Source of the DNA: an uncultured virus (IMG/VR IMGVR_UViG_3300013131_000038)
Lineage: Duplodnaviria; Heunggongvirae; Uroviricota; Caudoviricetes
DNA: 64,000 nucleotides
Direction: 5' to 3' (one strand)
Virus record (IMG/VR): IMGVR_UViG_3300013131_000038
Location: 1 to 64,000 of that record
In this document: positions 694 to 43,135 of the stretch, one piece after another
How positions within the stretch are numbered: position 1 is the stretch's first letter
Layout of the letters: each line of letters starts with the position of its first letter
Position numbers and translations under genes: made by a program
Notes under the pieces: generated by a model
Databases searched by the model: none
Told to the model about the DNA's origin: nothing
What the model saw: only the letters and a program-made list of their open reading frames with translations

Positions 694-1224
694 ATGAACT
701 TCCTCTGCATCGAAAACTTTTCTGGAGAAACGTTATCGCAAGTTATTCGCGATCTTCAGTTCAAAGACAAAGATCTCGGCCAAGAAATCGACTGTTTCAA
801 TTTTGTTGACCCGAGTTACGAAGAAATCTTCTCGGGCATTTTGCGCCAAAAAGTATCTTTACCAAAACACTGGGGGTTCTTCCGCAAAGCGAATTCCACG
901 ATTCATTTCGAGACTCACTCTGGACGAAGTTTATTCGCCGCTGTTCTCGCGCTAGACAGTCTTGTATTTACGAGCTACAAGCATAAAAAGCTTGGCGCAA
1001 GAACCGTTTATTGCCTCCCACCAGAATCGGTTCCCGCCTTTATTCAAGAAAATTCTAACGTTCCCGAAAATTGGGACGTTGAGAATCGAATCGCGATTCC
1101 ACAAGGTTCACTTTTCCTTTACGAGCCTTGGTATTGGCACACTTTTTCAAACGGAACTGCGCAACACTTTCTTGTTGAAAGACCCTCTGAAACCAATAAA
1201 ATTGATGAAACACCAAAAGCATGA
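694..1224 (+). CDS. Probable 2OG-Fe(II) oxygenase-like (DSBH) protein
   Basis: IHFETH and a distal LFLYEPWYWHT motif resemble the Hx(D/E)...H facial triad. Confidence 0.55.
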   Translation: MNFLCIENFSGETLSQVIRDLQFKDKDLGQEIDCFNFVDPSYEEIFSGILRQKVSLPKHWGFFRKANSTIHFETHSGRSLFAAVLALDSLVFTSYKHKKLGARTVYCLPPESVPAFIQENSNVPENWDVENRIAIPQGSLFLYEPWYWHTFSNGTAQHFLVERPSETNKIDETPKA

Positions 1225-1769
1225 AACTAAACATTGGTTCTGGCGGCATCAAACTCGATGGATTCGTTACTTGTGATTACGATCTTCTCGCAAAGCCAGA
1301 TTATTTATTTAATCTGGAAAAAGACCCTTTCCCATTTACTGACAATTCAGTAGAACTCGTTGTTGCGAGTCACATCTTCGAGCATCTTGGCGAAGGTTAT
1401 TTTCACTGCTTAAAAGAGCTTTATCGCGTTTGTAAGCACGGCGCGATCATTGACGTTACGGTTCCGCATCATCGCAACGATTATTTCTTCGATGATCCGA
1501 CGCACCGCAGGCCAATCACAGTTGGCGGCTTGCGCCTTTTCAGCAAGAAGCACAATGCGCTGTGCAAAGCTCAAGGCGCGGCATCTTCTAGACTCGGAGA
1601 CTACTTTGACGTAGATTTTGAGATCTTAGAGTTCCATCACGATCCGATGCCACAATATAGATCCGTGTTCGAAGGAAAGCCTCGCGAAGAAGTTGAGCGC
1701 TATATCTTTGAGCATAGCAATGTACTCGAACAGTTGAACATTAAGCTTGTTGTTATCAAGCAACCATGA
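1221..1769 (+). CDS. Class I SAM-dependent methyltransferase
   Basis: KLNIGSG motif I, PFTDNSV..VVASHIFEHL, ELYRVCKHG, DPTH. ATGA overlap with the previous gene. Confidence 0.85.
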   Translation: MKLNIGSGGIKLDGFVTCDYDLLAKPDYLFNLEKDPFPFTDNSVELVVASHIFEHLGEGYFHCLKELYRVCKHGAIIDVTVPHHRNDYFFDDPTHRRPITVGGLRLFSKKHNALCKAQGAASSRLGDYFDVDFEILEFHHDPMPQYRSVFEGKPREEVERYIFEHSNVLEQLNIKLVVIKQP

Positions 1770-3100
1770 GCGATATCTCGCACATCAGACAAACTGTTCT
1801 CGATTTGATCGCGAAAGAAAAACGAAAGACAGTTTTTGAAATCATCGACTTTTACTACGCCAAGGCTAAGACTTTAGCCGAGTTCGATGTTCTCGGAGAG
1901 TTGTCTTTAAAGGCCGAGTATCACGAAGTATATTTGCAGTGCGCAGAAGCGGCGTATTCTTGCGCGAGTACAAGCGAGCAAATTGCCGCTGCTCGCACGA
2001 ACCTCTATCAAGCTTACAATCGTCTCAATTATCCAGAGAAGGCTCTGTTTTATATCGATCTTCACTATAAGCGCGACCCAGACAACTTCGAAGGATTGAT
2101 GAACAAGGCATTTAACCTTGCGTTATTGGGTCAGAGAAAAGAATCGGAAACGATTTTGGAAGGCTTGAGAGCAAGAAGCGCCGAAGATGCTGAAAACTTG
2201 CGATACTCTCTTTCGGGTAAAATGCTTCGTTCTGGCGAAACTGCCGATGGAATCATCAACTTTATCGACACGTTCAAGCCTAGAAGCAAGCTGTTTGAGG
2301 ATAGCTTCAACATGAAAAAGTGGGTCGGCGGTCCACAGCCTGGCCGCACAATCTTCGTTAACGGCGAAGGCGGCGTTGGCGACGAGATTATTAACATTCG
2401 CTTCTTCAAGCATCTCAAAGATCTTGGAATGAATCCAGTCTTGTACTCTTGCTGGTCAATGTATCGCCCAGATATTGTTGACGTGTTTCGCCGTCACGGT
2501 CACGAAGTTATCTCGGAAACGTATTCTATCGACAAGACTGCACTGTGGACAAATATGATGCCGCTGCCCGGTTATCTTGGCCTCGAAGAAAAAGATCTTT
2601 GGTACGGTCCATACCTCACGCCAAAGCGCGATCCGAAGAATCGCCTCGAAAGCAAGAAGTTTAAAATTGGTATTAAAGCTAACGGTAACCCGTACTTTTC
2701 TCAGGACATTTATCGGCGCATTCCAATCGATCAAATCATTGAAGCCTTGTCCGAGTTCAAGGATATCGAAATCTACTTCTTTGATAAAGAGCAAGCTCAC
2801 TCAAAGTGCATCAATATGAAAGACAAGTTGAACTCTTGGGACGATACGCTCGACTACATTGACCAAATGGACGTGATCTTAAGCTCTTGTACGAGCCTCG
2901 TTCACGCTGCTGGAGCAATCGGCAAAACAACTATCGTTATGACGCCGATTGCCGAGTATTATGTTTGGACAAGCACGCGCACGAACAATAGCACGCCTTG
3001 GTATGGAGATAACTTCTATGTTGCGAAACAAGAGAAGCTGCGCTCTTGGGCAGAACCGTTACAAAAAGCTAAAGAAATTATAAAGGGACTAATCGGATGA
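1766..3100 (+). CDS. TPR-like N-terminus plus GT-B (family 9-like) glycosyltransferase
   Basis: Helical TPR-like region, then EGGVGDEIINIRF and DTLDYIDQMDVILSSCTSLVHAAGAIGK...PWY. Confidence 0.8.
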   Translation: MSDISHIRQTVLDLIAKEKRKTVFEIIDFYYAKAKTLAEFDVLGELSLKAEYHEVYLQCAEAAYSCASTSEQIAAARTNLYQAYNRLNYPEKALFYIDLHYKRDPDNFEGLMNKAFNLALLGQRKESETILEGLRARSAEDAENLRYSLSGKMLRSGETADGIINFIDTFKPRSKLFEDSFNMKKWVGGPQPGRTIFVNGEGGVGDEIINIRFFKHLKDLGMNPVLYSCWSMYRPDIVDVFRRHGHEVISETYSIDKTALWTNMMPLPGYLGLEEKDLWYGPYLTPKRDPKNRLESKKFKIGIKANGNPYFSQDIYRRIPIDQIIEALSEFKDIEIYFFDKEQAHSKCINMKDKLNSWDDTLDYIDQMDVILSSCTSLVHAAGAIGKTTIVMTPIAEYYVWTSTRTNNSTPWYGDNFYVAKQEKLRSWAEPLQKAKEIIKGLIG

Positions 3101-3756
3101 AATTTGAATACTGGTTTCCAACTGTTCTCGCCGTTCATCACGCCGAGGACAATTGCAGAAATGCAACTAAAGAAAAGATCTCGAAGTGGATCGAAAGCGG
3201 CGAGCACACAAAGTACCTCGAAGCTTGCCGCGAAGATAACTTGACAACGAGTTATTTTAAATGGCACGACACTCTCGGAGACTTGAAGCTAACAGAGTTA
3301 CACGCCGAGATCTTAGCTCAAACGGCAAAGTTCATTGAGCATATGGGTTTACATCTTGAAACTAAGAACCTCAAAGTAGACTCTTGGATCAATTTCTTTT
3401 ACCCGAATCAAACAGAACATCAGCACAACCATTACGGCAACTTCATTTCGGGCGTTTACTACGTTACTGGCAACGAGAAATCGGGCGCTTTTAGATTCTT
3501 CGATCCTGCCGTTCAAAAAACAATGTGGCGCGGTCAGTATTTATCGAATTCGGCACAGTCGATTGTTAACTTAACGAGCGGTCAGTATCTCCCAGAAGAC
3601 GGCAAAATGATCTTGTTTCCTAGCTGGTTAGAGCACTCGGTGTTGAAAAACACGTCGGACGAACCTAGAATCTCGATAGCATTCAATATCAATTTAAAGA
3701 ATCAAAATGAAAAAGACGTATCACATGATCACTGGTCTCCCGCGTTCGGGATCTAG
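3097..3756 (+). CDS. 2OG-Fe(II) oxygenase (TIGR02466-like)
   Basis: SWIN..HQHNH...ISGVYYV, FFDP, GKMILFPSWLEHSV, RISIAFN. Confidence 0.9.
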   Translation: MKFEYWFPTVLAVHHAEDNCRNATKEKISKWIESGEHTKYLEACREDNLTTSYFKWHDTLGDLKLTELHAEILAQTAKFIEHMGLHLETKNLKVDSWINFFYPNQTEHQHNHYGNFISGVYYVTGNEKSGAFRFFDPAVQKTMWRGQYLSNSAQSIVNLTSGQYLPEDGKMILFPSWLEHSVLKNTSDEPRISIAFNINLKNQNEKDVSHDHWSPAFGI

Positions 3757-4480
3757 TTTGTTGACCGCGATTCTAAAGCAGAACCCACGCTTTCACTCTT
3801 CGATCACGGACGGATTTGCCGCTTCTATTCCAAAGGCTTTGGAAGCTTGCCAAGGAGCGCCCGGTATGCGTTCCGAGTTTCCAGACCAACGCAAGCGCGA
3901 TCTTGTTGAGGCAATGTTCGATGGCTTCTACAAGTGCGTAGACAAGGAAGTTGTTTTCAACACTAGCCGAGGCTGGACGTATCTCACGTCGATTGTTAAA
4001 GATCTTTATCCAAACTCGAAGATGCTCGTTTGCGTTCGCGACATCAAGTGGATCTTAGACAGCTTTGAACTCGCCTTTCGCAGAAACCCTTACACGGTGA
4101 ATAGCGTATCGTTCGGTGGTTTGAGCGGTAGCGTTTACTCTCGCGCAGATTCGTTTATGAGCGACGACGGCATCGTTGGCTTCGCTTACAACGGTTTGAA
4201 GCAAGGCATCACTAGCGGCGAGAAGAAGAGTTTGATGCTCGTTGAGTACGATCAGCTCTGCAAGAACCCGAAGGGCATGATGACTGCGATCTATAACTTC
4301 ATTGGAGAGCCGCAGTTCGAGCACGACTTCAACAACGTTCAAATGTCTTGGGACGAGTACGACGCAGAGATCGGCATTAAGCTGCACAATGTTCGCAAAA
4401 AGATCAAATATACTCAGCGCGAAACGATTCTCCCTCCTGACCTTATTCACAAGTATTCGGGCTTAGAAGTTTGGCGTTAA
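3707..4480 (+). CDS. PAPS-dependent sulfotransferase
   Basis: ITGLPRSGSSLL (5'-PSB loop), VCVRD..WILDS (3'-PB), VEYDQLCKNP...IYNFIG. Confidence 0.9.
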   Translation: MKKTYHMITGLPRSGSSLLTAILKQNPRFHSSITDGFAASIPKALEACQGAPGMRSEFPDQRKRDLVEAMFDGFYKCVDKEVVFNTSRGWTYLTSIVKDLYPNSKMLVCVRDIKWILDSFELAFRRNPYTVNSVSFGGLSGSVYSRADSFMSDDGIVGFAYNGLKQGITSGEKKSLMLVEYDQLCKNPKGMMTAIYNFIGEPQFEHDFNNVQMSWDEYDAEIGIKLHNVRKKIKYTQRETILPPDLIHKYSGLEVWR

Positions 4481-4848
4481 TGCAAGAACGCACGTTCAGA
4501 GAATGCGGCGAGTGTTACGCTTGCTGTGATGGTCACTTGTTCGCTAATGCTCACGGCAACAAGTTCGGTGCTGGCTGCGCTTGTGCTTTTTTAGTAAACA
4601 AGAAATGCTCCGTTTACGAGAACCGACCCGATGTTTGCCGCAAATATCAGTGCGCTTGGACGCAGCATCTTCTCGACGTGGATATGCGCCCAGACAAGTG
4701 CGGCATCATGGTTTCCGTAGAGATTGACGCTAATAAAAAGCAGTATCTCAAAGTGATGCAGATCAAAGAATTTGTAGGCTACGAGGTTTACAAAAAACTT
4801 GACGAATGCGCGAAAAAACTTCATACCTATTGGATTAAAGCTTCATGA
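4480..4848 (+). CDS. YkgJ-like cysteine-cluster (Zn/Fe-chelating) protein
   Basis: CGECYACC...CAFL...CSVYENRP.VCRKYQC. TAATG coupling suggests the start is ATG 4480. Confidence 0.8.
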   Translation: MQERTFRECGECYACCDGHLFANAHGNKFGAGCACAFLVNKKCSVYENRPDVCRKYQCAWTQHLLDVDMRPDKCGIMVSVEIDANKKQYLKVMQIKEFVGYEVYKKLDECAKKLHTYWIKAS

Positions 4849-5774
4849 ACACAACTTTCATTATTAGTGGCGGCGCGGGTCGAGTAATTGCAGCAGTTCC
4901 AGCGTTAGAGAAGTATGCGCGGCTAAATCCAAATGACGATTTCAAAGTTCTCGTTTATGGATGGGAGAGTTTGTTCTGGAGCCACCCAGTTTTACAAAGC
5001 CGCACGTTCTCGATTCATCAGAAAGGAACGTTCGAAGTTAGTATCAAAAATAATCGTGTCGTTTGTCCTGAGCCTTACTACGTTCATGACTACTACAATC
5101 AGAAGATTTCTTTAGCGCAAGCCTTTGACGCCGAGATCAACAAAACATCTGACTATTCTGATTTAACGCCGCCGAAGCTTTATATCTCGACTCTTGAGCG
5201 TAACTCGGCTCTTAGAATCGTGCGCGAGACTAGCAAGGAACGCGCAAAAACGCTCGTTATTCAGCCGTATGGTAGTGGGATGGGCATTTTGAATAATCGC
5301 CCGTTTGATTCGAGTCATCGTAGCTTGGACGTGGACGCCTATTTAAAAATCGTTAAGCGCTTATCCGAGAAGAATCGCGACCTTTCGATCATTTACTTTG
5401 GCGACCAAAACTATCGCCACCCTGCCGATGACGTGTCCGTAGACCTTAAGCCTTACGGTCCCGATCTTCGCGCATACTTGTCTTTGATTGCAGTTAGCGA
5501 TTACTTTTTGGGTTGCGATAGCGTTGGGCAACACATGGCTCGCGCCCTTAACAAGAACGGAATGGTCTTAATGGGATCGACCGACGAAACTAACGTTTCT
5601 TACCCAGACTATTTTACGATCTATCGCAAAAAGGGTCACGTTCCAACTTACAGTCCGATTCGTCTCTCTGGTTTAGATTGCGAGTTTGCCGACAGATTAA
5701 ATGACGGCATCATGAACTTCAACGACGAAGAGATAGAAGAGATTTGCGATACGGTAAACGCGAGCCTCTATTAA
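4845..5774 (+). CDS. Glycosyltransferase family 9-like (GT-B)
   Basis: GGAGRVIAAVPAL N-terminal motif and LIAVSDYFLGCDSVGQHMARAL. Confidence 0.8.
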   Translation: MNTTFIISGGAGRVIAAVPALEKYARLNPNDDFKVLVYGWESLFWSHPVLQSRTFSIHQKGTFEVSIKNNRVVCPEPYYVHDYYNQKISLAQAFDAEINKTSDYSDLTPPKLYISTLERNSALRIVRETSKERAKTLVIQPYGSGMGILNNRPFDSSHRSLDVDAYLKIVKRLSEKNRDLSIIYFGDQNYRHPADDVSVDLKPYGPDLRAYLSLIAVSDYFLGCDSVGQHMARALNKNGMVLMGSTDETNVSYPDYFTIYRKKGHVPTYSPIRLSGLDCEFADRLNDGIMNFNDEEIEEICDTVNASLY

Positions 5775-10995: not shown

Positions 10996-13900
10996 ATGGC
11001 AAAAGGAATCCAAGTACCCGTAACGCAGACTGGGCTAAGTCAGTCTATTAATCAAGCCGTTAAGAAAGTAGGGCCGATTAATGTACCGATTAACGTCAAT
11101 CCCAATGCGTTCAAGAACCTTTCACAGCCACTTGGTAGAATCACGGGTCTTGCCAGCGAGTTTGAAAAGTCAATTGCGGCGTCTAATGCGCGTGTTATCG
11201 CATTCGGCGCGTCAGTAGGTATCATCAATGGCTTTCAGAACGCCCTTTCTCAACTTGTAAAAACGGGCATTGAAGTTCAAAAAACTCTTGCCGATATTTC
11301 TGCTATCAGTGGGGCAACTGGCGTTGAGCTTTCTAAGCTCGCAGATGGTATTTTCGATGTTGCCAAAAATACGGGTCAGTCATTCAAAACGGCATCTGAA
11401 GCTGCACTAGAGTTTTCTCGCCAAGGTTTGGCGTTAGAAGAAACGATCAAGAGAACAAACGATGCGTTAACACTGAGCCGCTTTACTGGTTTAAGCGCAG
11501 CCGATTCGGTAGATACTCTAACTGCCGCATTTAACTCGTTCCAAGAGTCTGGAGTCACTACGGCAGAAATTCTGAATAAGTTAGTCGCAGTTGACTCGGC
11601 TTATGCAGTTTCTGCTGCTGACCTTGCAAAAGCTATTTCTCGCGTAGGTTCAGTAGGTATCGAGGCTGGCGTTTCGCTAGATGAACTTAATGCTGCGGTA
11701 ACGGCAGTTCAGCAGAGAACTGCGCGTGGTGGTGCAGTTATTGGTAACGCATTCAAGACGATTTTTACAAACCTTAGATCCGAGAATGCGATCAAGGCTT
11801 TGCGCGATATTGGAGTAGAGTCTCTTGACCTTCAGGGAAATTTAAAGCCTTCGCTACAAGTTATTAAAGAACTTGCGGTCGCCGTGCAAGGTTTAGGAGA
11901 GGGTGAACGTGTTCAGATTTTAGAAACGATCGCTAGTAAGTACAACATTAACATTTTGTCTGCACTTATTGGCGATTTGACGGATAAGCAGAGTGCATTT
12001 ACTGGAGCGCTGGAAAAGAGCGCCAATGCAGCGTCAGAAGCTTACGATAGACAAAAGCAGTTAAACGAAACTTTGGCGGCGGCGATTAACAATACGACCG
12101 TTTCCGTAACGCAACTTTTCAACAAGCTCTCAGAAATTGGAGTAAACGAAAATCTAACTGCGCTGCTGAAGTTTGTAAACGATTTACTATCTGGTTTCAA
12201 TAAGCTGCTCGACTCTGAAAGCGTCGGCGGAAACATTGCGAAGGGTTTGATCAAGGGCATCAGCGATGTATTTTTCACCGTTGGTCTTCCAATCATTGCG
12301 GCCATCTTCGTAAAACTGACTCGCGATATTGCTCAGTTCGGTATCGAGTCTTTAAAAACTATTCTCGGAATCAATCAACAGGTGCGCGAGCGTCAGGCTC
12401 TTGAACAAGCCGTAGTAAATACGCTAATTAAAGATCAGCAAGTAATGGCTACGATTCTTGCTCTGAGTGGAGACAGGGCAAAGCAAGAGCAGTATTTACT
12501 TAATGTTTACAATCAGCAGATTGCCGCACTACAAAAGGTTCAGAGCATCGCACAATCTGTTGCTCCTGCTCTTCAAGGCGCTGGACTTAGCGCGACATCT
12601 GGTCAAGTTCGCAGACGCGCAGCTGGTGGTTATCTGCCAAGTCAAGAAGCCTCCGATGTTCGTCGCGGTGTTGGCGGCGCAAGTCCATCCTCAAAAGTAG
12701 TTTCGATTCCAAATTTCGCATTTGGCGGCGGTAAGCACGGGACAATGATCGCCAATACGAGCGAGTATATTGTTCCTAATTTTGCGAACGGTGGGTCGGC
12801 AATCTTTAATCCTGATATGGTTAAGGCTTATGGATTGCCAGCGGGAGCCAAGAAGATCAATGCGTCTGGCGGCTATGTCCCGAATTTTGCTAGATATGTT
12901 TATGATGCTGACCGTATCGTAGCAGATAAAAATGCCTTATTAAAGGCAATTTTAGCTTCTAGAGCGAAAAAGAATTTGATTGTCGGACCAGCCGGAGCCG
13001 GTAAAAGTACTTATGGCGGAGGGCTTGGATCGTTCATAACGAACGTTGCTCAACTAGGCGATGCTACTGAAATTGATATTTTATCTAGCGCGGGCAGAAC
13101 AAAGGAGGGGGGATTTTCGAAAAATTTCCAAGAACTTGTAAACGCCGTAAACGTTTCTGGAGGCAAAGTTTCTTATCTATATGCTAGTAATATGGATATC
13201 CTTTCTCGCCGCTATGGAAGAACAGAAAATGCTATTCAAGAAGGAGATTTGAGAAGTAAAAAGCAAATTGTAGGCACAATTTATGCGCCATTAAATCAAT
13301 TTGACTTTATTTCAAAGATGAAAGGAAGTTCTAAAAACTTCCAGATGACTCGCGGATCTGGCGGCTTTATTCCAAATTTTGTAAATGAGCTACCCGGTAA
13401 AACGCCTGCATATAGTCAGCCAAAAACTAAACCAAAAGGTTCTAATTTAGATTCAGTTACAGTAGACGCAAGATGGTCGGGAGGAGCAGTTATGCTTTTG
13501 CCGTCCAGCAAGCAAAGACAGAAATTTTTAAAGCAAGGATACAGTACAGCGCCAAGTGCAAACGTAAGCAAAAAGGAAGTTCTACCTGATGGGAGAAGAA
13601 TTTCGGGTGTTCTTTTTGATGCTTTCGCTGTAATACCAAGTGAATTAAAAAGTAGAAGTGGACAAGAAATTGCAAATATTGAAGAACGAGTTAAAAAGGT
13701 TGTTTATCAAACTGGATCTGAAATAATAGCAGATTTTGATCCACTACAAAGACCGCAAGTAGGAGCAGATGAGTTTGCAAGAGTATATGATAAAAAAGGT
13801 GGTGCCGCTGGTGCCGCATCCGCAGTTGCTGGATCGATTTTTGAAGCTGCCGTTGACTATGCATTAAATCCACAAAAAGCAACGAATGTACAAAGTACGC

Positions 13901-16900
13901 TCGATGTTCCTAGGTTATCACCAGAATTAATTAAAGCCTTTGGAATTACCACTCCTTATGGAACATCGTCTGGAGGCGATTATAAAATTAGTGCCGAGAG
14001 AGCACAAGCGTTTGCAGACCAAATTATTAGAAATAAAGTGTATCAGCCGCCAGCTCCAAAAGCTGCTGCGTCTACTGGTTACGTTCCAAATTTTGCGAAA
14101 CAATCGGCGCTTTCTGATGCTATCGGACGTGAAATTGGCGCTGGAGTTAATCCAAGCCAAATCCGAGTCACGCAAGACGGAAGACTCAGAAACTCGCAAA
14201 ATCCAAATGGCCTTGCAGTAATCAACACAAGAGACGAGCCAAACGGAAAAGTTCCAAACTTTGCCAGAGAAAGATATGCCGCTGGAGAAATTGTAAATGG
14301 GAAAAAGGTTGGTGGACAGTTTAAACCAGCATCGGCAGCTTCTGGTCGGACCGCGAGTGCAACTACGCCACTAACAGATCAAACTGCAAAATTGTTTTTG
14401 GCATTTTCTGGACTAACTCTTGTTTCTTCGACTCTACAATCAACATTCAAAGATACTGAATCTAGTATAGCTAAATTCGCCACTGCAACATCTAATGTTG
14501 TTCAAACGCTTTCAAGTGGTGCGCTGCTTGGTAATTTAGTGCAGCAAACTGGATTGTCTGGTTTGGCTAAAAGAGGAGGTGTTCTTGGAAGTGTTGGACG
14601 TATAGCTGGAAATGCTGGAATAATTGGCGCAATCGGTGGCGCTGGTATAGGTATTTATCAAGAAATTCAGGCAGCAAGAGAAGCGGAACGTCAACGACCA
14701 ATTTTAGCTGGAGAAGAAGGAGCTGGTCGTAGAATCGCAGATATCGCCGCTCAAGAAACCAATCCTGAGTCAATCAGAGAACAGCTACTTAAAGATTTCC
14801 AAGCTGGACAAGCAGAATTTGAAAGAATTCAAGCTCAATTACAACAAGGAAGCGAAAGAGCTGCGGCGGCTCGGCTTAATGTCGCCGCTTTTGGAACTGG
14901 TGGAGAATTCGACCCACAGCTTCAAGAAAATGTAAAATTTTTAGAAGAAAGAAAAAAACTGGAAGAAGAGCTTAATACTTTACTGGGAGGTCAGCAAAAA
15001 TTTTTGCAACAAATTGGAGCAACGACAAATGATATAGAAAATGCTGCCAAGAGAAAAGAAAAATTAGAAAAAGAAGCGAATACCGAAGCTGAAAGACGCA
15101 TAAATCTAGAGCAGGCTTTTGAAAAAATTGCTTTATCTATTTTAAAGGGCGATAATGAACGTTTGAAAGCGCGTGCGCAAATTGCCGCGCAAGATATTAA
15201 AAATGCAGCCAATCTTAATAGTTTTCAAAAACAAGAATTAGAGTTTAATAGAAAAATTCAAGACTTTGAAGAAGAGTCAACGCAGAAGCAAAGAGACCTT
15301 TTAAATTTAACTGTTCAGCAGTTAATTAAGGGCGGAAGTTTAGCGAGCGTAACTGAAGAACAAGCGAATAGGCTCAAGCAGATACTTGAAAGTGGAACAG
15401 AAATTGCCGATAACTCGCAATTAATTGCAGATCTTGGAATTAAAAATGCAACTGTAGTTAATGAAGAAATTGAAAAAGTATCGAACAAAATAGCTTTGCA
15501 AAAGGAAGAGACTCGTGGGCTAATAGAGCGTTTTTCAATTACTCAAAGAGCCTCAATTGAGGCGTCTAAACAGTTAGGTTTTATTGAAGCTCAAACAAGA
15601 GCTTTAAATGCTCAAGCTGAAACTGCAAGGGAAATTGAAATAATAGAAGCTAAAAGAAGTCGCTTAAGATCGGGAAAGGCTCAAGAATTAAATATTGAAA
15701 ATATAAGATCAGGTATAGCGACAAGAGGCATAGCTTCTCCGACGCAAACTAGACAGCTTCTAGAAGCTGAAAAAAATCTTAATTTTGTAACTAAAAGAAA
15801 TAATGTAGAAGAAACTTATAGGCGCTCTCAAGAAGAAGGCTTTAACGCTTTAAGAAATGCATATATTGAACAAGTAAATGGTTCTGAATTCATATCTGAC
15901 GCAGAGCAAAAACGGGCGGAAAGTTTATTGCAATCAGCTAAAACAGCAGAAGATTTACAAAAGATTTATGCTGCATTTGACCCTAGTTTTTCTGGAATTG
16001 GGACAAACGAAAATCGAGCATTAGAATATCAATTGTCTTTATTTGAACAGTCAAAAGCTATATTAGAAGAAAGAAAAAAAATAATAGACGCTAATATAAG
16101 TTTATCGAAAGAGGAAAGAGACCTCGAAATTCAAAAGCTAAATATTGAAATTAAGCGCAGAGATCGCGTATTAGAAATTGCGAAAATCAGAGAAAGCTCT
16201 AGGCTAAAAGCTGGGGTTGCTACCGCGCTTGACGACTTAGAGGCTGAATCAGAAAACTTTTATGAAACACTCGGCAACAGAACTACAATAGCTTTTAGGG
16301 ATGGCTTAACAGACGCATTGAGTGCGGCTATTTCTCAAACTGACGATCTTGGTGATGCGCTGCAAAATGTTGCGCGTAATTTCTTGCAGACGATTCAGCA
16401 GGCATTTTTGCAACAAGCTTCGGGGCAAATTGTGCAGTTAATCGGAAAGAGCTTCAATTTTGCCAATGGTGGAATCGTAAAAAAATACGCTGGAGGCGGA
16501 AAGGTAGTTGGAGGAAGCGGCTATAAAGATGACGTTCCAGCGATGCTCACAAGCGGAGAGTTTGTGATGAGAAAGTCTGCCGTGCAGAAGTATGGCATGG
16601 AAAATCTTGAAAGAATGAACAACGGCGGGATCTTCCTGCCCGGTGTTCGTGGCGCTGGTGCAATCTCTGGCTACGGCGACATCACAAAGTTCGCAAAGCA
16701 GACAACTACTAGCGGCGCAACAGACGTTATGATGGGCGGCGCGTCTTCGGCATTCATTAACCTTGAAGATCAAAGCGCAAGGCTTTCTCGTTTTGGACTT
16801 CTAAACGAAGATACGATTAATCAAGAAATTAGAGCGGCACAAGAACAGGGCTTAAATCTTATTAGAGAAAGAGAAGCTTATAGAACGGCACAGAGAAAAG

Positions 16901-17571
16901 CGTTCCAGCAACAGCTGGTTAGCACTTTAGCTTCTGCCGCAATAAGCTTCGGAGTTGGAAAATTGACCGCTCCAAAGGTAACGGGCCTTCCCGCATCTTT
17001 ATCAAAAACAGGAACTCCATTTGCTGCAAACGCTGGCCCAGCATCATTTGGCAATGTCGCTTTATTAAAGGGCGCTCCAATTAAATTTAGTGGCGGAATT
17101 GGTTCATTTATGAATCCAGTTGGCGCAAAGCCAATTCCATTTCGTGCTTATGGTGGATTGATGCGCCGCTACGCTGCTGGAGGTCCAACTGACGACATTC
17201 CTGCTCTATTGATGGGCGGCGAATATGTCATGAGCCGTCAATCGACGCGCAAATACGGCAAGCAGTTCTTCGATGCGATGAACCAAGGTAGAGCGCCAAG
17301 ATTCGCAGAAGGCGGGGTGGTCGGTGGAGCTAACGGAACTGAACTTGGGGATAAGTTTGACAAGCTCTCTACCAAACTCGAAACGACCGCAGCTTCGAAC
17401 ATTAGCATCAACATTAATGTCACGAACGGCGGATCGTCAGAAACTCAAACTCAAGGCGACACGAATCGCGGCGGCATCGATTACAAGAAGATGGGCGATC
17501 AGATTCGCCAAGTTGTTATCCAAACGATCAACGAAGAAAAACGCCTCGGTGGTTCACTGAGAAGTAGATAA
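10996..17571 (+). CDS. Tail tape measure protein (TP901-like core) with internal inserted domains
   Basis: 2191 aa. N-terminal TMP core (EFSRQG...DLAKAISRVGS..G.SLDEL...G..IGNAFKTI), long coiled-coil, C-terminal FANGG/YAGGG..DDVPAML..GEFV motifs. Internal Walker A GPAGAGKST. Confidence 0.92.
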   Translation: MAKGIQVPVTQTGLSQSINQAVKKVGPINVPINVNPNAFKNLSQPLGRITGLASEFEKSIAASNARVIAFGASVGIINGFQNALSQLVKTGIEVQKTLADISAISGATGVELSKLADGIFDVAKNTGQSFKTASEAALEFSRQGLALEETIKRTNDALTLSRFTGLSAADSVDTLTAAFNSFQESGVTTAEILNKLVAVDSAYAVSAADLAKAISRVGSVGIEAGVSLDELNAAVTAVQQRTARGGAVIGNAFKTIFTNLRSENAIKALRDIGVESLDLQGNLKPSLQVIKELAVAVQGLGEGERVQILETIASKYNINILSALIGDLTDKQSAFTGALEKSANAASEAYDRQKQLNETLAAAINNTTVSVTQLFNKLSEIGVNENLTALLKFVNDLLSGFNKLLDSESVGGNIAKGLIKGISDVFFTVGLPIIAAIFVKLTRDIAQFGIESLKTILGINQQVRERQALEQAVVNTLIKDQQVMATILALSGDRAKQEQYLLNVYNQQIAALQKVQSIAQSVAPALQGAGLSATSGQVRRRAAGGYLPSQEASDVRRGVGGASPSSKVVSIPNFAFGGGKHGTMIANTSEYIVPNFANGGSAIFNPDMVKAYGLPAGAKKINASGGYVPNFARYVYDADRIVADKNALLKAILASRAKKNLIVGPAGAGKSTYGGGLGSFITNVAQLGDATEIDILSSAGRTKEGGFSKNFQELVNAVNVSGGKVSYLYASNMDILSRRYGRTENAIQEGDLRSKKQIVGTIYAPLNQFDFISKMKGSSKNFQMTRGSGGFIPNFVNELPGKTPAYSQPKTKPKGSNLDSVTVDARWSGGAVMLLPSSKQRQKFLKQGYSTAPSANVSKKEVLPDGRRISGVLFDAFAVIPSELKSRSGQEIANIEERVKKVVYQTGSEIIADFDPLQRPQVGADEFARVYDKKGGAAGAASAVAGSIFEAAVDYALNPQKATNVQSTLDVPRLSPELIKAFGITTPYGTSSGGDYKISAERAQAFADQIIRNKVYQPPAPKAAASTGYVPNFAKQSALSDAIGREIGAGVNPSQIRVTQDGRLRNSQNPNGLAVINTRDEPNGKVPNFARERYAAGEIVNGKKVGGQFKPASAASGRTASATTPLTDQTAKLFLAFSGLTLVSSTLQSTFKDTESSIAKFATATSNVVQTLSSGALLGNLVQQTGLSGLAKRGGVLGSVGRIAGNAGIIGAIGGAGIGIYQEIQAAREAERQRPILAGEEGAGRRIADIAAQETNPESIREQLLKDFQAGQAEFERIQAQLQQGSERAAAARLNVAAFGTGGEFDPQLQENVKFLEERKKLEEELNTLLGGQQKFLQQIGATTNDIENAAKRKEKLEKEANTEAERRINLEQAFEKIALSILKGDNERLKARAQIAAQDIKNAANLNSFQKQELEFNRKIQDFEEESTQKQRDLLNLTVQQLIKGGSLASVTEEQANRLKQILESGTEIADNSQLIADLGIKNATVVNEEIEKVSNKIALQKEETRGLIERFSITQRASIEASKQLGFIEAQTRALNAQAETAREIEIIEAKRSRLRSGKAQELNIENIRSGIATRGIASPTQTRQLLEAEKNLNFVTKRNNVEETYRRSQEEGFNALRNAYIEQVNGSEFISDAEQKRAESLLQSAKTAEDLQKIYAAFDPSFSGIGTNENRALEYQLSLFEQSKAILEERKKIIDANISLSKEERDLEIQKLNIEIKRRDRVLEIAKIRESSRLKAGVATALDDLEAESENFYETLGNRTTIAFRDGLTDALSAAISQTDDLGDALQNVARNFLQTIQQAFLQQASGQIVQLIGKSFNFANGGIVKKYAGGGKVVGGSGYKDDVPAMLTSGEFVMRKSAVQKYGMENLERMNNGGIFLPGVRGAGAISGYGDITKFAKQTTTSGATDVMMGGASSAFINLEDQSARLSRFGLLNEDTINQEIRAAQEQGLNLIREREAYRTAQRKAFQQQLVSTLASAAISFGVGKLTAPKVTGLPASLSKTGTPFAANAGPASFGNVALLKGAPIKFSGGIGSFMNPVGAKPIPFRAYGGLMRRYAAGGPTDDIPALLMGGEYVMSRQSTRKYGKQFFDAMNQGRAPRFAEGGVVGGANGTELGDKFDKLSTKLETTAASNISININVTNGGSSETQTQGDTNRGGIDYKKMGDQIRQVVIQTINEEKRLGGSLRSR

Positions 17572-18341
17572 TGAAATCATCGATCTCAAATTATGAAAAC
17601 AGTCTATATCTCAGTGGCCTCAAGATCTTTGGGGTCACAGATACAAACTTTGGCTACTCGCTTCCCGTTGAGCACATCAACGTAATCGGCAATTCAAAGT
17701 TCGCGACGTTCACGAACGGCGCACCACAGTCGTCACTCAGCGTTCAAAAATACCTTTCGAAAGACGACTTTTTGCTGAGAATGACTGGCGAAGGTCCGAT
17801 TAGCGGCGGCTTATTCTACAATAATAAGAATTTTTCCTTTCGTTCAGCTTATTTGAATTCTTATTCGGTATCGTGCGCAGTTGGCAACTTCCCGAATCTT
17901 AGCGCAGACTTTTCCGTATTTGGCGACATTGGTACAGGATTGGCCCAGTCAACGTCGGGTGAAACGGGCAAACTAAGCGTCATTAGACCCGCCGATATCC
18001 TCATCGAATGCGATGGTAGCGGGTCGAACCGAATCGAGGCGTTTACCTACTCTCTTGAGTGCGCCAGACAAGCTTTCTATCATCCAACGGGTTCGGCTCC
18101 GATGGACGTGGTGACTCAAAAGCCATTCCGAGTAACGGCGCAGTTCACGATTGCGATAGATGACTACGAATCGAAAAGACTTTTCGATTATGTTGTAGAT
18201 TCGAATAAAAGAAACGTTAGTATAACAGTAGGTTCGTTAGCTACGTTTACAATGGCAAATATGGAGCTTCTCAGCGAAACGGTCAACAGCACAGCAACGG
18301 ACGACCTTGTGCTGACGCTTAACTATCAAGGATTCATCTAA
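17571..18341 (+). CDS. Tail-tube-like paralog (tail tip/initiator)
   Basis: AYLNSYSVSCAVGNFP and IRPADILIE align with GFITNYSVEAAVGGLP and LRPGDITLE of 5827-6954. Confidence 0.6.
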   Translation: MKSSISNYENSLYLSGLKIFGVTDTNFGYSLPVEHINVIGNSKFATFTNGAPQSSLSVQKYLSKDDFLLRMTGEGPISGGLFYNNKNFSFRSAYLNSYSVSCAVGNFPNLSADFSVFGDIGTGLAQSTSGETGKLSVIRPADILIECDGSGSNRIEAFTYSLECARQAFYHPTGSAPMDVVTQKPFRVTAQFTIAIDDYESKRLFDYVVDSNKRNVSITVGSLATFTMANMELLSETVNSTATDDLVLTLNYQGFI

Positions 18342-19306
18342 TGTCATTCCTTTACGATAGAGACCAAAACGTAACTGGAACGATTCCGCCGTCGTTCACT
18401 TTCAAACCGTCTTACGGAACGACCGTTTCGTTCAACGCTGACCTTTCGCAGTACGAGACGACCGACAATTATATCTATACGATGCCAAAGGGCGCGAATC
18501 ATTTGCAACTAGAGTTTGCGATGAATTTCGACAACAGAAAAGAAGAAGAGGCGCGTCAGATCTTAGGTTTCTTCGAAAGCTTGAACGGCACTGGCTACTT
18601 TCAGTATACGGACCCAGCGGGCATCTACAAACCGATCAATTTGTTCACGAACGACTTTACAAATTCGTTCGACAAAAATGATTTGCACTCGATCACCGCA
18701 AATCTGAATTCGGACCAGTTTTCAAGTCTGCTCAACTGGAACAATCCTTTTTTAGCTCAAACCGCCAATGTTAAAGGGGACTGGGCTACTAGCACCTCTT
18801 ATCTCGAATACGACGTAGTGAGATACACGGGAAACGCAACATATCCAAGTAACACGGGCAACCTATACGACTCATTTTACTACTGCACTGGAGACCACAC
18901 TTCAGACGCGAGCTTCAGCGCGTCAAATATGAACAACGATAAGTGGACTCGCGACTTCTTCTTCCAGCCAACTTACTCGTCGCAAATCCAAAAAGAGACC
19001 GCAGTTGTAAAAACGCAGCTACCTTACTCGTACACGAAGCGCACAGACTTTGGCCTGCACTCGAACACGATAAAGTCTTTCAATCTAGAGTTCAAGGGAG
19101 TTTCGGATAAGGAAGCGCGATGCATCTTGCACTTCTTGATCTCGAAACAGGGTTTTCGCCGCTTTCAATACAAGTTCCCAAAGATCTACAATCAGAACAA
19201 ATACTTCTTCGCGACAACTTGGTCGCACACGATGGTTTACAAGGACGTTAACGATATTTCGATAACGATTCGCGAAGACCCGTTAGGCGTTAGGAAATCA
19301 TACTAA
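18341..19306 (+). CDS. Minor/distal tail protein with two lambda gpM-like units and a central carbohydrate-binding-like insert
   Basis: EARQILGFFESLNGTGYFQY and EARCILHFLISKQGFRRFQY, with insert GDWATSTSYLEYDVVRY...YYCTGDHTS. Confidence 0.65.
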   Translation: MSFLYDRDQNVTGTIPPSFTFKPSYGTTVSFNADLSQYETTDNYIYTMPKGANHLQLEFAMNFDNRKEEEARQILGFFESLNGTGYFQYTDPAGIYKPINLFTNDFTNSFDKNDLHSITANLNSDQFSSLLNWNNPFLAQTANVKGDWATSTSYLEYDVVRYTGNATYPSNTGNLYDSFYYCTGDHTSDASFSASNMNNDKWTRDFFFQPTYSSQIQKETAVVKTQLPYSYTKRTDFGLHSNTIKSFNLEFKGVSDKEARCILHFLISKQGFRRFQYKFPKIYNQNKYFFATTWSHTMVYKDVNDISITIREDPLGVRKSY

Positions 19307-41778: not shown

Positions 41779-42516
41779 ATGGTCCCTTTATTCAAGTCTC
41801 ACTTTTCCGTGGGGAAAAGCATTTTAACTCTGGCTGAACCAGAAAAGCAAAAGCCAGACGGTCCAGACAGTATTATTTCCATCGCAATCGAGAACGGATT
41901 AAAAGAAATCTATCTCGTAGAAGACTCGCTGACTGGCTTTTTGACGGCTTTCAAATCGTGCAAAGCGCACGATATTCATCTCAAGTTCGGGTTAAGAATT
42001 TCTGTTTGCAACTCGTATGATTCAGTAGAGACTTCTAGTCACAAAGTCGTTTTGTTTGCCTTGAACGACAACGGGTTCAAGGACTTGAATAAGATTTACA
42101 CGCACGCCTTCGTTCATCACGAAGGCACGATTTCTAACGATGATATTGTAGCCAAATTAACGGAGAACGTGCTTGTTGCAATTCCGTTTTACGACTCGTA
42201 CATCTGGAATAATATGTATAGCTTTTCAGACTGTATGCCGAGCTTTAATGCGCACGTTTATTTTGTGGAAGACAACAATCTTCCGTTCGATAAGCTTACC
42301 GCCGATTTTATCCGTTCGAAACAAAACAAATCTTCCATTGTAGAAGCCAAGTCGATCTACTATTATAAGAGAGACGACTTTGACGCTTGGATAACGTACA
42401 AGATCGCTTGCAATCGACGCATGGGCAAATCGCAGACCTTGTCTGCGCCAGAGATCAATGGGTGCGGAAGCCGCGAGTTCTGCTTCGAATCTTGGGCTCA
42501 GAGAAGCTATGAATAA
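41779..42516 (+). CDS. Stand-alone PHP domain of DNA polymerase III alpha
   Basis: PLFKSHFS...S, FGLRI, LFALNDNGFKDL.KI.T resemble the DnaE N-terminus. Confidence 0.75.
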   Translation: MVPLFKSHFSVGKSILTLAEPEKQKPDGPDSIISIAIENGLKEIYLVEDSLTGFLTAFKSCKAHDIHLKFGLRISVCNSYDSVETSSHKVVLFALNDNGFKDLNKIYTHAFVHHEGTISNDDIVAKLTENVLVAIPFYDSYIWNNMYSFSDCMPSFNAHVYFVEDNNLPFDKLTADFIRSKQNKSSIVEAKSIYYYKRDDFDAWITYKIACNRRMGKSQTLSAPEINGCGSREFCFESWAQRSYE

Positions 42517-43135
42517 TCTTTTAAAACAGAAAATTAACCAAAAGTTTGTTGTCTTCGATACAGAAACCGAAGGACTGTCTTTGACCTCTTCGCGTCCTTG
42601 GCAACTTTCTTGGATCGTTTGTCAAGGCGATCAAATTTTAGAGAGACACGACGAGTTTGTGAAATACGATGATTTGAACGTTTCAGAGGATGCGGCTAAA
42701 GTTACAGGATTTAATTTTGCAAATTACTCTGCAAAAGCAAAAGACCCGATGGATGTTTGGAGAAAGTTTGCCAAGTATCTTTACGATGACCAGTACATTT
42801 TCGTCGGGCATAATATTCTCAACTTCGATATTTACATCCTCAATACAATGATGCGCGGGCTTGGACTTAAAAATGATTGGCGTTTCGTGTCAAGAATGAT
42901 CGATACCCGTTCTCTTGCCGTTGCAATGTTTAAGAAGATCAAGCGAAACGGCGATTTGATTCCTTGGCAAATTAAGCTTATTAACGTTCGCGAAAAAGGG
43001 CTAAAGGCTAGTCAAGGATTCCTTTTGAAGCATTTTGCCGTTGATCACGATCCGTCGAAACTGCACAACGCTCTGTACGACATTGAAATGAATTATATTT
43101 TATTCAGAAAACTTATCGCGGAGGTCGAAGTATGA
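42509..43135 (+). CDS. dnaQ: DEDDh 3'-5' exonuclease (epsilon-like)
   Basis: FDTETEGL, GHNILNFD, IDT, HNALYD. Confidence 0.9.
   Translation: MNNLLKQKINQKFVVFDTETEGLSLTSSRPWQLSWIVCQGDQILERHDEFVKYDDLNVSEDAAKVTGFNFANYSAKAKDPMDVWRKFAKYLYDDQYIFVGHNILNFDIYILNTMMRGLGLKNDWRFVSRMIDTRSLAVAMFKKIKRNGDLIPWQIKLINVREKGLKASQGFLLKHFAVDHDPSKLHNALYDIEMNYILFRKLIAEVEV

What the first reader, a model, noticed from the sequence alone, without database searches (positions are those of the whole stretch)
12892..13353. P-loop kinase/AAA-like domain embedded in the tape measure protein
Seen: NLIVGPAGAGKST (Walker A at 12985-13011) after a hydrophobic strand, and a later ILSRRYGR segment resembling the R..R lid of small nucleotide/polynucleotide kinases. 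A TMP has no known need for this. Inference: an injected kinase acting on nucleotides, nucleic-acid ends or defence signals before phage gene expression.
Basis: partly seen in the sequence, partly recalled or inferred. Interest (0 to 1): 0.72.

Follow-up and report, generated by a model that had tools for sequence, protein, structure and literature searches.

The report
Rearranged kinase cassette in phage tail
The tail 'ruler' protein of an uncultured lake-water phage contains an optional, strongly conserved small kinase domain of an unnamed family, with its catalytic parts in an unusual order, so the virus may bring a ready-made enzyme into its host, although activity, substrate and delivery are all untested.

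Summary
Confirmed. Residues 633-786 of the 2,191-aa tape measure protein (TMP) form a real P-loop domain. It is a small-kinase fold, not AAA+: AlphaFold pLDDT 91.9; best matches are polynucleotide, adenylate and zeta kinases, Z 7-8 and tied. Among 151 full-length homologues, down to 27% identity, D637, D639, the Walker A G-x-G-K and lid R742 never change; dN/dS is 0.05-0.24. The D-x-D strand lies before the P-loop and the Walker B acid is replaced by Ser. This block order resembles gonococcal zeta_1, the only top-listed structure aligned from residue 1, but zeta_1's sugar-binding residues are missing and profiles match only at the P-loop. The domain is a cassette fenced by GG(Y/F)(I/V)PNF linkers, present in 53 of the 120 closest TMPs, cleanly absent from the four nearest, and also found as stand-alone ~150-aa genes. 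Best reading (0.5): an ATP-dependent hydroxyl kinase delivered with the TMP, acting on a nucleotide-containing host metabolite. Substrate, activity and delivery are untested. This scan already noted the cassette array on other DNA. Nine paper searches found no P-loop kinase in a TMP; enzyme cargo in TMPs and zeta-like kinases in MuF virion proteins are known.

The parts
10996..17571 (+). Tape measure protein gene, 2,191 aa (P0001)
   Evidence: (PF10145 residues 123-312); a PF05939 minor tail gene lies downstream at 18341-19306
12256..12312 (+). Hydrophobic segment (residues 421-439), likely membrane span, upstream of the cassette array
   Evidence: the only 19-residue window with mean hydropathy >= 1.5 in P0001; an upstream hydrophobic segment in 106 of 109 kinase-bearing long proteins
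12859..12891 (+). Left linker NASGGYVPNFA (residues 622-632)
   Evidence: DNA repeat family D1, 30 nt; a contig in run X8 leaves the window sequence at 12887
12892..13353 (+). P-loop kinase cassette (residues 633-786; P0002)
12904..12912 (+). Invariant D637-x-D639 at the end of the first strand, upstream of the P-loop; proposed Mg ligand and catalytic base (inferred)
   Evidence: 151 of 151 each; reads RYVYDAD against ng-zeta_1 R51-Y-V-C-A-D56 (D56 catalytic per PMC5923241)
12985..13011 (+). Walker A GPAGAGKST (K670)
   Evidence: G667, G669, K670 151 of 151
13084..13104 (+). End of the Walker-B-position strand (S697 instead of Asp/Glu) and conserved K703 in the following hairpin
   Evidence: S 145 of 151, K 142 of 151; strand E60-65 and helix from 77 in the model
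13198..13254 (+). Lid: R738, R739, R742, then D751-x-R753
   Evidence: R738 141/151, R739 150/151, R742 151/151, D751 and R753 145/151 with the other 6 gapped; helix 100-112 in the model
13351..13383 (+). Right linker RGSGGFIPNFV (residues 786-796)
13384..14064 (+). Next cassette (residues ~797-1023), fast-changing, with invariant G-x-x-F-E, D and K that recall a PD-(D/E)XK nuclease (recalled motif; fold not confirmed)
   Evidence: alignment A5, 18-36% identity to the first row; model pLDDT 70.5; no informative fold match
14065..14097 (+). Third linker AASTGYVPNFA (residues 1024-1034), closing the variable array

Best explanation
The segment is an active, ATP-dependent phosphotransferase of the small P-loop kinase class, from an unnamed family found on phage contigs. 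It is carried as an optional cassette inside the TMP and reaches the host with the TMP at infection. SHOWN: the domain, its fold class, its invariant active-site residues, purifying selection, gain and loss at the linker, and stand-alone forms. INFERRED chemistry: K670 and the lid arginines (R739, R742, R753) hold ATP; D637 replaces the missing Walker B acid as Mg ligand; D639 is the base that deprotonates a hydroxyl acceptor, as D56 does in ng-zeta_1; K703 binds a phosphate or carboxylate of the acceptor. INFERRED delivery: the chain passes the tail unfolded, the upstream hydrophobic segment anchors it in the membrane, and the cassette refolds in the cytoplasm where ATP is, attached or cut at the linker. 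My commitment on substrate, given activity: a nucleotide-containing small molecule (UDP-sugar, NAD-type or signalling nucleotide) about 40%, a nucleic-acid 5'-OH about 25%, a protein or tRNA about 15%, other about 20%. The role would be to blunt an early host defence or to divert a metabolite before phage genes are expressed. Step odds: kinase-class fold 0.95, active phosphotransferase 0.8, acts from the virion 0.6.
For: Model pLDDT 91.9, pTM 0.87. All top rows of three PDB searches are small P-loop kinases: adenylate kinase 5 first in Foldseek (E 2.4e-3, TM 0.47); ng-zeta_1 6epg Z 7.5, rmsd 3.2, 130 aligned; PNK 4gp7 Z 8.0, rmsd 3.5, 110 aligned. An independent Atlas model of the stand-alone homologue P0162 has a zeta-toxin cluster as first structural neighbour, TM 0.67 over residues 1-152. 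Invariant D637, D639, G667, G669, K670, R742 in 151 of 151. dN/dS 0.054-0.239 in 36 of 36 pairs of 9 sequences, with dS near saturation in many pairs. Only the ng-zeta_1 entries align from model residue 1 (to 48-216) among the 50 rows each, and ng-zeta_1 has two swapped blocks that put Asp56 before K115 (PMC5923241, section 8 and passages read). P-loop Lys to Walker-B position is 27 residues here, 18 in ng-zeta_1 and about 67 in the canonical zeta P0160 (counted by hand). Cassette: 53 of 120 closest TMPs carry it and the four nearest (96-99% identical over residues 440-625) run from the linker straight into the next module; linkers on both sides in 96 of 122 long carriers. Precedents: an RNA polymerase that stays part of the full-size TMP in virions and is on phage DNA 5 min after infection (PMC10770324, passages); T5 pb2 is cut, ejected and membrane-inserted (PMC10038345, passages); zeta-like kinases fused to MuF in phages (PMC5512222, passages).
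Against: No activity, substrate, virion or delivery data exist. All fold matches are middling and tied (Z 7-8, TM under 0.5 in Foldseek), which the tool says may mean only a common arrangement. The place of the D-x-D strand in the active site is inferred: model coordinates and residue pairings were not available, the first aligned pair (1 to 48) is two residues off my motif register (1 to 50), and in the Atlas search two non-zeta clusters also span residues 1-152. Profile comparison with five ng-zeta_1-type sequences matches only the P-loop (25 columns, probability 71%). There is no Walker B acid. Stand-alone genes show that the family also works without a virion, so the TMP copy could act in the producing cell. 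No neighbouring module points to a substrate: the next cassette is about as common without the kinase (49 of 67) as with it (45 of 53). Homologues were collected by likeness to the query, which favours conservation.
Confidence: 0.5

Rival explanations
1. Same active kinase, but it works in the infected cell that makes it: it is cut out at the linkers (or acts while still attached) during late expression, for example draining wall precursors as zeta toxins do and so aiding lysis, and it is not delivered by the virion.
For: Stand-alone genes exist: 20 sequences, 8 at under 75% identity, one on a phage contig beside terminase and head protease genes (L069). A 164-residue insert would lengthen a tail if it were threaded (general knowledge), and carriers range from about 1,500 to 5,500 aa. 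TMPs are cut during assembly (PMC10038345).
Against: In T5 the cut piece stays in the tail, and in P23-45 the enzyme stays in the full-size virion protein. A late function needs no TMP fusion, yet the family sits in TMPs with two linker types, interleaved with stand-alone forms on the tree. ng-zeta_1's UNAM-binding K59 and N75 have no conserved counterpart.
Confidence: 0.2
2. A nucleotide binder or NTPase without an acceptor: it senses or soaks up ATP/GTP or a signalling nucleotide, or acts as a switch for TMP refolding or DNA entry.
For: No Walker B acid (S697). The acceptor-binding region between D639 and the P-loop is short, 31 residues against 59 in ng-zeta_1. No kinase family reaches a cut-off for the window's domain.
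Against: Two invariant Asp and three near-invariant lid Arg are what a transition state needs (inference). A part needed for DNA entry would not be missing from 67 of 120 close TMPs.
Confidence: 0.15
3. A polynucleotide 5'-kinase that heals RNA or DNA ends cut by host defence nucleases, as T4 Pnk does.
For: Bacterial PNK is tied for first in all PDB searches (4gp6 Z 7.3; 4gp7 Z 8.0). The lid R-x-x-R ... D-x-R is PNK-like (recalled). A HAD-like D-x-D-x-T module occurs in some carriers (cluster 8, 6 sequences, by eye).
Against: PNK aligns only from residue 23, leaving out the D-x-D strand. The PNK D-x-x-R motif (recalled) is absent: position +3 after D639 varies. A HAD motif was found in 2 of 125 carriers and 2 of 67 non-carriers. 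No RNA ligase was among the 58 other window ORFs scanned against PHROGs.
Confidence: 0.12
4. An AAA+-type motor domain, or an inert or chance Walker A in spacer sequence.
For: Weak sequence hits to Clp ATPases (6lsy E 0.0036; Hsp101 E 2e-5) and to AAA_30 below cut-off; a loose Walker A arises in 615 of 2000 shuffles.
Against: No hhhhDE; kinase-type fold matches; invariant residues down to 27% identity and dN/dS far below 1; stand-alone genes with the same ends.
Confidence: 0.03

Closest known systems
ng-zeta_1 toxin of Neisseria gonorrhoeae plasmid pEP5289 (PDB 6epg/6eph/6epi; PMC5923241, section 8, passages and supplement passages read)
   Same: Small P-loop kinase fold; catalytic-Asp strand before the P-loop (R-Y-V-C-A-D56 against R-Y-V-Y-D-A-D639); short link from P-loop helix to the Walker-B strand; two lid arginines; the only top-listed structure aligned over model residues 1-154 (Z 7.5-7.7, rmsd 3.1-3.2, 130 aligned).
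   Different: 10-11% identity; profiles match only at the P-loop; no E133-G-Q Walker B, no K59, N75, H79 or N80 block for UNAM; no OB domain; no antitoxin gene seen; sits inside a virion protein rather than a plasmid toxin-antitoxin operon.
Bacterial and T4 polynucleotide kinases (4gp6, 4gp7, 1ltq) and adenylate/NMP kinases (5ycb, 7owe, 1ukz)
   Same: Core sheet, P-loop and Arg lid; Z 5.3-8.0.
   Different: They align only from residue 15-26; their acid motif follows the P-loop and they have a Walker B Asp (recalled); this domain has neither feature in that place.
Polyvalent proteins of phages and conjugative elements (Iyer et al. 2017, PMC5512222, passages read)
   Same: Strings of exchangeable conflict domains in a delivered protein, with stand-alone cassettes; the paper names a zeta-toxin-like kinase fused to MuF in phages and Ser/Thr kinases.
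   Different: The carrier here is a TMP ('tape' occurs 0 times in that main text; its linked online files were not seen); the kinase is a different, rearranged family.
Enzyme-bearing tape measure proteins: Thermus phage P23-45 gp96 (PMC10770324) and T5 pb2 (PMC10038345); passages read
   Same: An enzyme domain inside a TMP, present in virions and working after ejection.
   Different: Those are an RNA polymerase and a wall-cutting peptidase, fixed parts of their phages; this is an optional kinase cassette swapped at a peptide linker.

Membership tests
Tape measure protein (PF10145) | PhageMin_Tail domain above cut-off, in a long gene beside tail genes | tested here: met
   95.2 bits against cut-off 33.2; PHROG TMP families; PF05939 gene downstream
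Small P-loop kinases (NMP kinase / PNK / zeta class) | Walker A after a hydrophobic strand | tested here: met
   G, G, K in 151 of 151; strand E26-31 then helix 38-45
Small P-loop kinases (NMP kinase / PNK / zeta class) | Alpha/beta core with an Arg-bearing helical lid after strand 4 | tested here: met
   Z 7-8, middling but consistent over four searches and two models
Small P-loop kinases (NMP kinase / PNK / zeta class) | Acidic Walker B residue at the end of strand 3 | tested here: not met
   Ser in 145 of 151, Tyr 4, Ala 2. Shikimate and gluconate kinases also lack it and use a D-x-D (recalled), so this does not exclude the class
Small P-loop kinases (NMP kinase / PNK / zeta class) | Phosphoryl transfer from NTP to an acceptor | not testable with these tools
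   needs biochemistry
ng-zeta_1 subfamily | Catalytic Asp block placed before the P-loop | tested here: inconclusive
   Motif order and aligned range fit; residue pairing and coordinates not shown; coupling analysis uninformative
ng-zeta_1 subfamily | UNAM-binding K59 and N75, and the E-G-Q Walker B, invariant in five members | tested here: not met
   against 14, 81
ng-zeta_1 subfamily | Sequence homology over the whole kinase domain | tested here: not met
   hhalign: 22 columns, probability 8%; 25 columns, 71%; P-loop only
ng-zeta_1 subfamily | Cognate epsilon antitoxin gene upstream | not tested
   The domain lies inside the TMP; no search for an antitoxin elsewhere in the genome was made
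Zeta_toxin (PF06414) | Match to the Pfam model | tested here: not met
   No hit for P0002 at E 0.1; 0 of 15 members of A7 at E 0.001; no match in G001, which holds an identical copy of the domain
Polynucleotide kinase (T4 / Clostridium type) | D-x-x-R motif on the strand after the P-loop helix (recalled) | tested here: not met
   No invariant acid between K670 and S697 (position 686 is D in 114, Q in 30 of 151, and Q in this protein); +3 after D639 varies
AAA+ ATPases | Walker B hhhhDE | tested here: not met
AAA+ ATPases | AAA+ fold with helical C-terminal subdomain | tested here: inconclusive
   not listed among the top rows; absence from such a list does not exclude a family
Polyvalent proteins (Iyer et al. 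2017) | Several unrelated effector domains in one chain, varying between relatives, with stand-alone cassettes | tested here: met
   module arrays and order swaps in 100 proteins; stand-alone forms
Polyvalent proteins (Iyer et al. 2017) | Delivery into the host with the DNA | not testable with these tools
   needs virion proteomics and infection experiments

The most novel reading that the evidence does not exclude
A new family of rearranged P-loop kinases, found so far only on uncultured phage-type sequence, that arose independently of ng-zeta_1, moves repeatedly between free genes and tape measure proteins, and is injected through the tail to phosphorylate and so silence a host immune nucleotide (an NAD-derived or cyclic signal) before any phage gene is expressed: counter-defence by phosphorylation, delivered by the tail ruler.
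Probability: 0.12. Interest if true: 0.9.

Novelty: new variant of a known kind. Interest (0 to 1): 0.62.

Why it matters
Known TMP enzymes cut the cell wall or, in one case, transcribe. A cytoplasm-type kinase that phages gain and lose at a fixed peptide would make the tail ruler a general delivery route for ready-made conflict enzymes. The family is also a second case, by inference, of the block swap described for ng-zeta_1. Natural stand-alone versions of about 150 aa make the open question (which substrate) directly testable without culturing the phage.

Tried and rejected
Pfam, PHROGs, NCBIfam and PADLOC name no family for the window's domain above cut-off; hits in homologues are generic P-loop matches. 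No match in 50,697 GenBank phage records for the domain or a stand-alone form, and none confirmed in the GTDB genome scan (two peptide patterns only), so the host is unknown; TMP and polymerase searches gave only distant phages. BFVD gave no match at E 0.001. The Atlas feature search for P0002 stayed under 0.9. Mean-field coupling on 162 sequences (effective 67) was too noisy to place the first strand. The next cassette could not be confirmed as a nuclease: best Z 3.8, no Foldseek match; a missing match does not show that the fold differs or is new. The idea of a NadR-like kinase plus NMN-adenylyltransferase pair: my HIGH pattern found 0 of 125 carriers and 0 of 67 non-carriers, but it also missed the weak Pfam HIGH hit in P0109, so the test is weak. 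The left-linker count was wrong (domain start misplaced) and was redone. No RNA holder listed. Runs X3, X5 and X8 gave no cover over most of the cassette, which alone proves nothing. No complex prediction was sent. Paper searches for a kinase in a TMP or a permuted P-loop kinase (listings and abstract starts) showed none; most subscription papers are not in that library, and bioRxiv supplements and the polyvalent-protein online files were not seen.
Full report
The observation. The finding lies in frame inside ORF 10996-17571 (+), 2,191 aa. The protein is a tape measure protein: PF10145 at residues 123-312, 95 bits against a cut-off of 33, with 13 PHROG tape-measure families among 15 hits. A minor tail gene follows at 18341, and the window also holds a DNA polymerase, DnaB-like helicase, primase, ribonucleotide reductase and a central tail fibre J. 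The record is a 76,481-base virus contig estimated 53% complete; the runs that hold it are lake or freshwater metagenomes, two of which may be its source. The stretch 12892-13353 is residues 633-786. A loose Walker A is common by chance (615 of 2000 shuffles); the strand plus G-x-x-G-x-G-K form is not (0 of 2000).

A conserved family. A search with residues 625-795 found 99 proteins among 714 candidates of 1,205-3,835 aa, most carrying PF10145. A profile of 11 close sequences against 1.84 billion representatives gave 68 hits. Of 162 domain hits then held, 151 were full length (11 dropped); 49 remain at under 70% identity, the most distant 27% identical to the query. In the 151, D637, D639, G667, G669, K670 and R742 are invariant; R739 is 150 of 151 (one Lys); D751 and R753 are 145 of 151 with six gaps; S697 is 145 and K703 142. 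dN/dS was 0.054-0.239 in all 36 pairs of 9 close sequences, many near dS saturation. The adjacent cassette is only 18-36% identical among the same kind of loci, against 57-79% for the kinase. These homologues were chosen by likeness to the query, which favours conservation, but the invariant set is exactly an active-site set.

The fold. AlphaFold2 with 35 sequences gave pLDDT 91.9 and pTM 0.87. Foldseek against the PDB ranked adenylate, guanylate, polynucleotide, shikimate and gluconate kinases at the top, none at E 0.001 and all with TM under 0.5. The wide VIA search ranked ng-zeta_1 (6epg, Z 7.5, rmsd 3.2, 130 aligned), an archaeal adenylate kinase (7.4), PNK (7.3) and uridylate kinase (7.2), which are tied; the second look gave PNK 8.0, adenylate kinase 7.8 and ng-zeta_1 7.7. 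The tool warns that Z under 8 may reflect a common arrangement. An independent Atlas model of the stand-alone homologue P0162 had a zeta-toxin cluster as nearest structure (TM 0.67, residues 1-152) and AAA_33 and zeta clusters as nearest by features. So the class is small P-loop kinase, not AAA+. No library names the family.

What is unusual. Kinases of this class normally carry their acidic motif on the strand after the P-loop helix, and most have a Walker B acid (recalled). Here the only invariant acids outside the lid, D637 and D639, end a strand that comes 31-33 residues before K670, and the Walker B position is Ser. Among the 50 rows each, only the ng-zeta_1 entries align from model residue 1 (to chain residues 48-216); the rest start at residue 7 or later, most at 15-28. 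Rocker et al. (PMC5923241; section 8, passages and supplement passages read) report that ng-zeta_1 has two blocks swapped, so that the catalytic Asp56 precedes the P-loop K115. Its sequence there reads R-Y-V-C-A-D56 against R-Y-V-Y-D-A-D639. The distance from the P-loop Lys to the Walker B position is 27 residues here, 18 in ng-zeta_1 and about 67 in the canonical zeta on the same plasmid (hand counts). I infer the same rearrangement. Against this: I could not see coordinates or residue pairs; the first aligned pair is two residues off my motif register; a short strand (residues 48-49 of the model) does follow the P-loop helix; two non-zeta Atlas clusters also span 1-152; and a coupling analysis was uninformative. 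The domain is not a member of the ng-zeta_1 family: K59, N75 and E133-G-Q, invariant in five members, have no counterpart, and profile comparison matches only the P-loop.

A swappable cassette. The domain is fenced by GG(Y/F)(I/V)PNF(A/V) linkers at residues 622-632 and 786-796, with a third at 1024-1034; the DNA copies are 73-77% alike over 30 nt. Cutting 100 carriers at such linkers showed arrays of modules whose number and order differ, with the kinase before or after its usual neighbour. Of 122 long carriers with a whole domain, 96 have this linker on both sides, 19 on one and 7 on neither; most of those 7 have an F-A-x-G-G type linker instead. Among the best 120 of 466 TMPs found with residues 440-625, 53 carry the kinase; the four nearest (96-99% identical there) do not, and run from the left linker directly into the next module. 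At DNA level, a contig in run X8 follows the window over 12300-12887 with 10 differences and leaves it at 12887, inside the linker.

Stand-alone forms. Twenty sequences of 147-159 aa start with Met at the first strand and end at the last; ten of them belong to one 90% cluster, and most come from short contigs. P0106 is recorded as a complete gene on contigs up to 84 kb. One copy, frameshifted in that assembly, lies on a phage contig with terminase and head protease genes (L069). In a tree of 53 rows the stand-alone label needs 3 changes and is never one clade in 200 bootstrap trees; P0106 pairs with the TMP copy P0092 (99/96). This shows exchange between free and fused states more than once; the direction is not shown, the root being for drawing only.

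How it most likely works. Shown: fold class, invariant residues, selection, cassette behaviour. Inferred: K670 and the lid arginines bind ATP, D637 binds Mg in place of Walker B, D639 is the base for a hydroxyl acceptor, and K703 grips an acidic group of the acceptor. A catalytic Asp points to hydroxyl kinases (zeta, PNK, shikimate type) rather than NMP kinases (recalled). The TMP has one clear hydrophobic segment at 421-439, upstream of the array, and 106 of 109 long carriers have one there, which fits membrane anchoring with the array beyond it. Precedents for delivery are P23-45 gp96, whose RNA polymerase is part of the full-size virion TMP and is on phage DNA at 5 min (PMC10770324, passages), and T5 pb2, which is cut after R1127, ejected and membrane-inserted (PMC10038345, passages). 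I did not test whether the linker is a cutting site. Patchy presence in close relatives suits a conflict role rather than a core one. I put 0.5 on an active kinase delivered at infection, with a nucleotide-containing metabolite the likeliest acceptor; 0.2 on action in the producing cell; 0.15 on binding or hydrolysis without an acceptor; 0.12 on nucleic-acid end healing; 0.03 on a motor or inert motif. Neighbours do not settle the substrate: the next cassette is present in 45 of 53 carriers and 49 of 67 non-carriers, and its nuclease-like motif was not backed by fold searches.

Comparison and novelty. It works like the cargo of polyvalent proteins, where a zeta-like kinase fused to MuF in phages is already named (PMC5512222, passages); that main text does not mention tape measures. 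The jumbo-phage review was read in passages and holds no TMP kinase there (PMC7824862); PMC7653084 was read in passages only for the plasmid's name. Nine paper searches (listings and abstract starts) showed no P-loop kinase in a TMP; subscription papers and some supplements lie outside that library. This scan has already noted the linker-fenced array, including a small kinase, on other DNA; those notes are unchecked and are not counted as support. Verdict: a real feature, a new variant of a known kind, interest 0.62.

Noticed in passing
window 13384-14064 (TMP residues ~797-1023): Fast-changing cassette with invariant G-x-x-F-E, D and K, recalling a PD-(D/E)XK nuclease; several other module clusters in related TMPs (10, 16, 23, 24, 31) show the same pattern by eye. 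Fold searches were uninformative.
   Followed up: partly
P0079 residues 1307-1506 (cluster 6, 8 sequences): Module with Ser/Thr protein-kinase-like motifs by eye, usually right after the P-loop kinase; a short pattern found it in 8 of 125 carriers and 0 of 67 non-carriers, but the two sets were collected differently and Pfam did not detect it.
   Followed up: partly
P0014 residues 1442-1648 (cluster 8, 6 sequences): Module with a HAD-phosphatase-like D-x-D-x-T motif by eye.
   Followed up: partly
P0109 residues 478-559: Weak HIGH nucleotidyltransferase hit (E 1.5e-4, below cut-off) in a 4,831-aa TMP that also carries the kinase.
   Followed up: partly
L052 8001-8530: A linker-fenced, more distant P-loop module in a 3,089-aa ORF, with G-D-V in place of D-x-D and an Asp at the Walker B position: possibly a sister family with the acids redistributed.
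   Followed up: no
window 14098-14250 (TMP residues ~1035-1085): A short, strongly conserved module (N-T-R-D-E-P motif) closes the array in 94 segments among 100 proteins; function unknown.
   Followed up: no
P0055, P0060, P0061, P0064, P0065, P0067, P0095: Related TMPs also carry lysozyme (PF00959), chitinase-type (PF00182) or transglycosylase (PF01464) domains.
   Followed up: no
window 1221-5774: Cluster of methyltransferase, 2OG-Fe(II) oxygenase, sulfotransferase and CxxCxxCC genes, probably a modification pathway.
   Followed up: no
window 41779-45702: DNA polymerase III alpha-like function spread over three adjacent ORFs (polymerase-like N-terminal piece, exonuclease, main subunit).
   Followed up: no
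window 45705-48119: An 804-aa Clp-type ATP-dependent protease/chaperone subunit; a phage-encoded unfoldase could bear on TMP handling, untested.
   Followed up: no
L069 8002-8412: The stand-alone kinase gene on this phage contig is frameshifted by a deletion relative to P0162; assembly error or natural loss not decided.
   Followed up: partly
L073 (Moraxella bovis plasmid, 1,190-aa gene annotated as zincin-like metallopeptidase): An ng-zeta_1-type kinase domain lies inside a large multidomain plasmid protein, i.e. that subfamily also travels as cargo.
   Followed up: no
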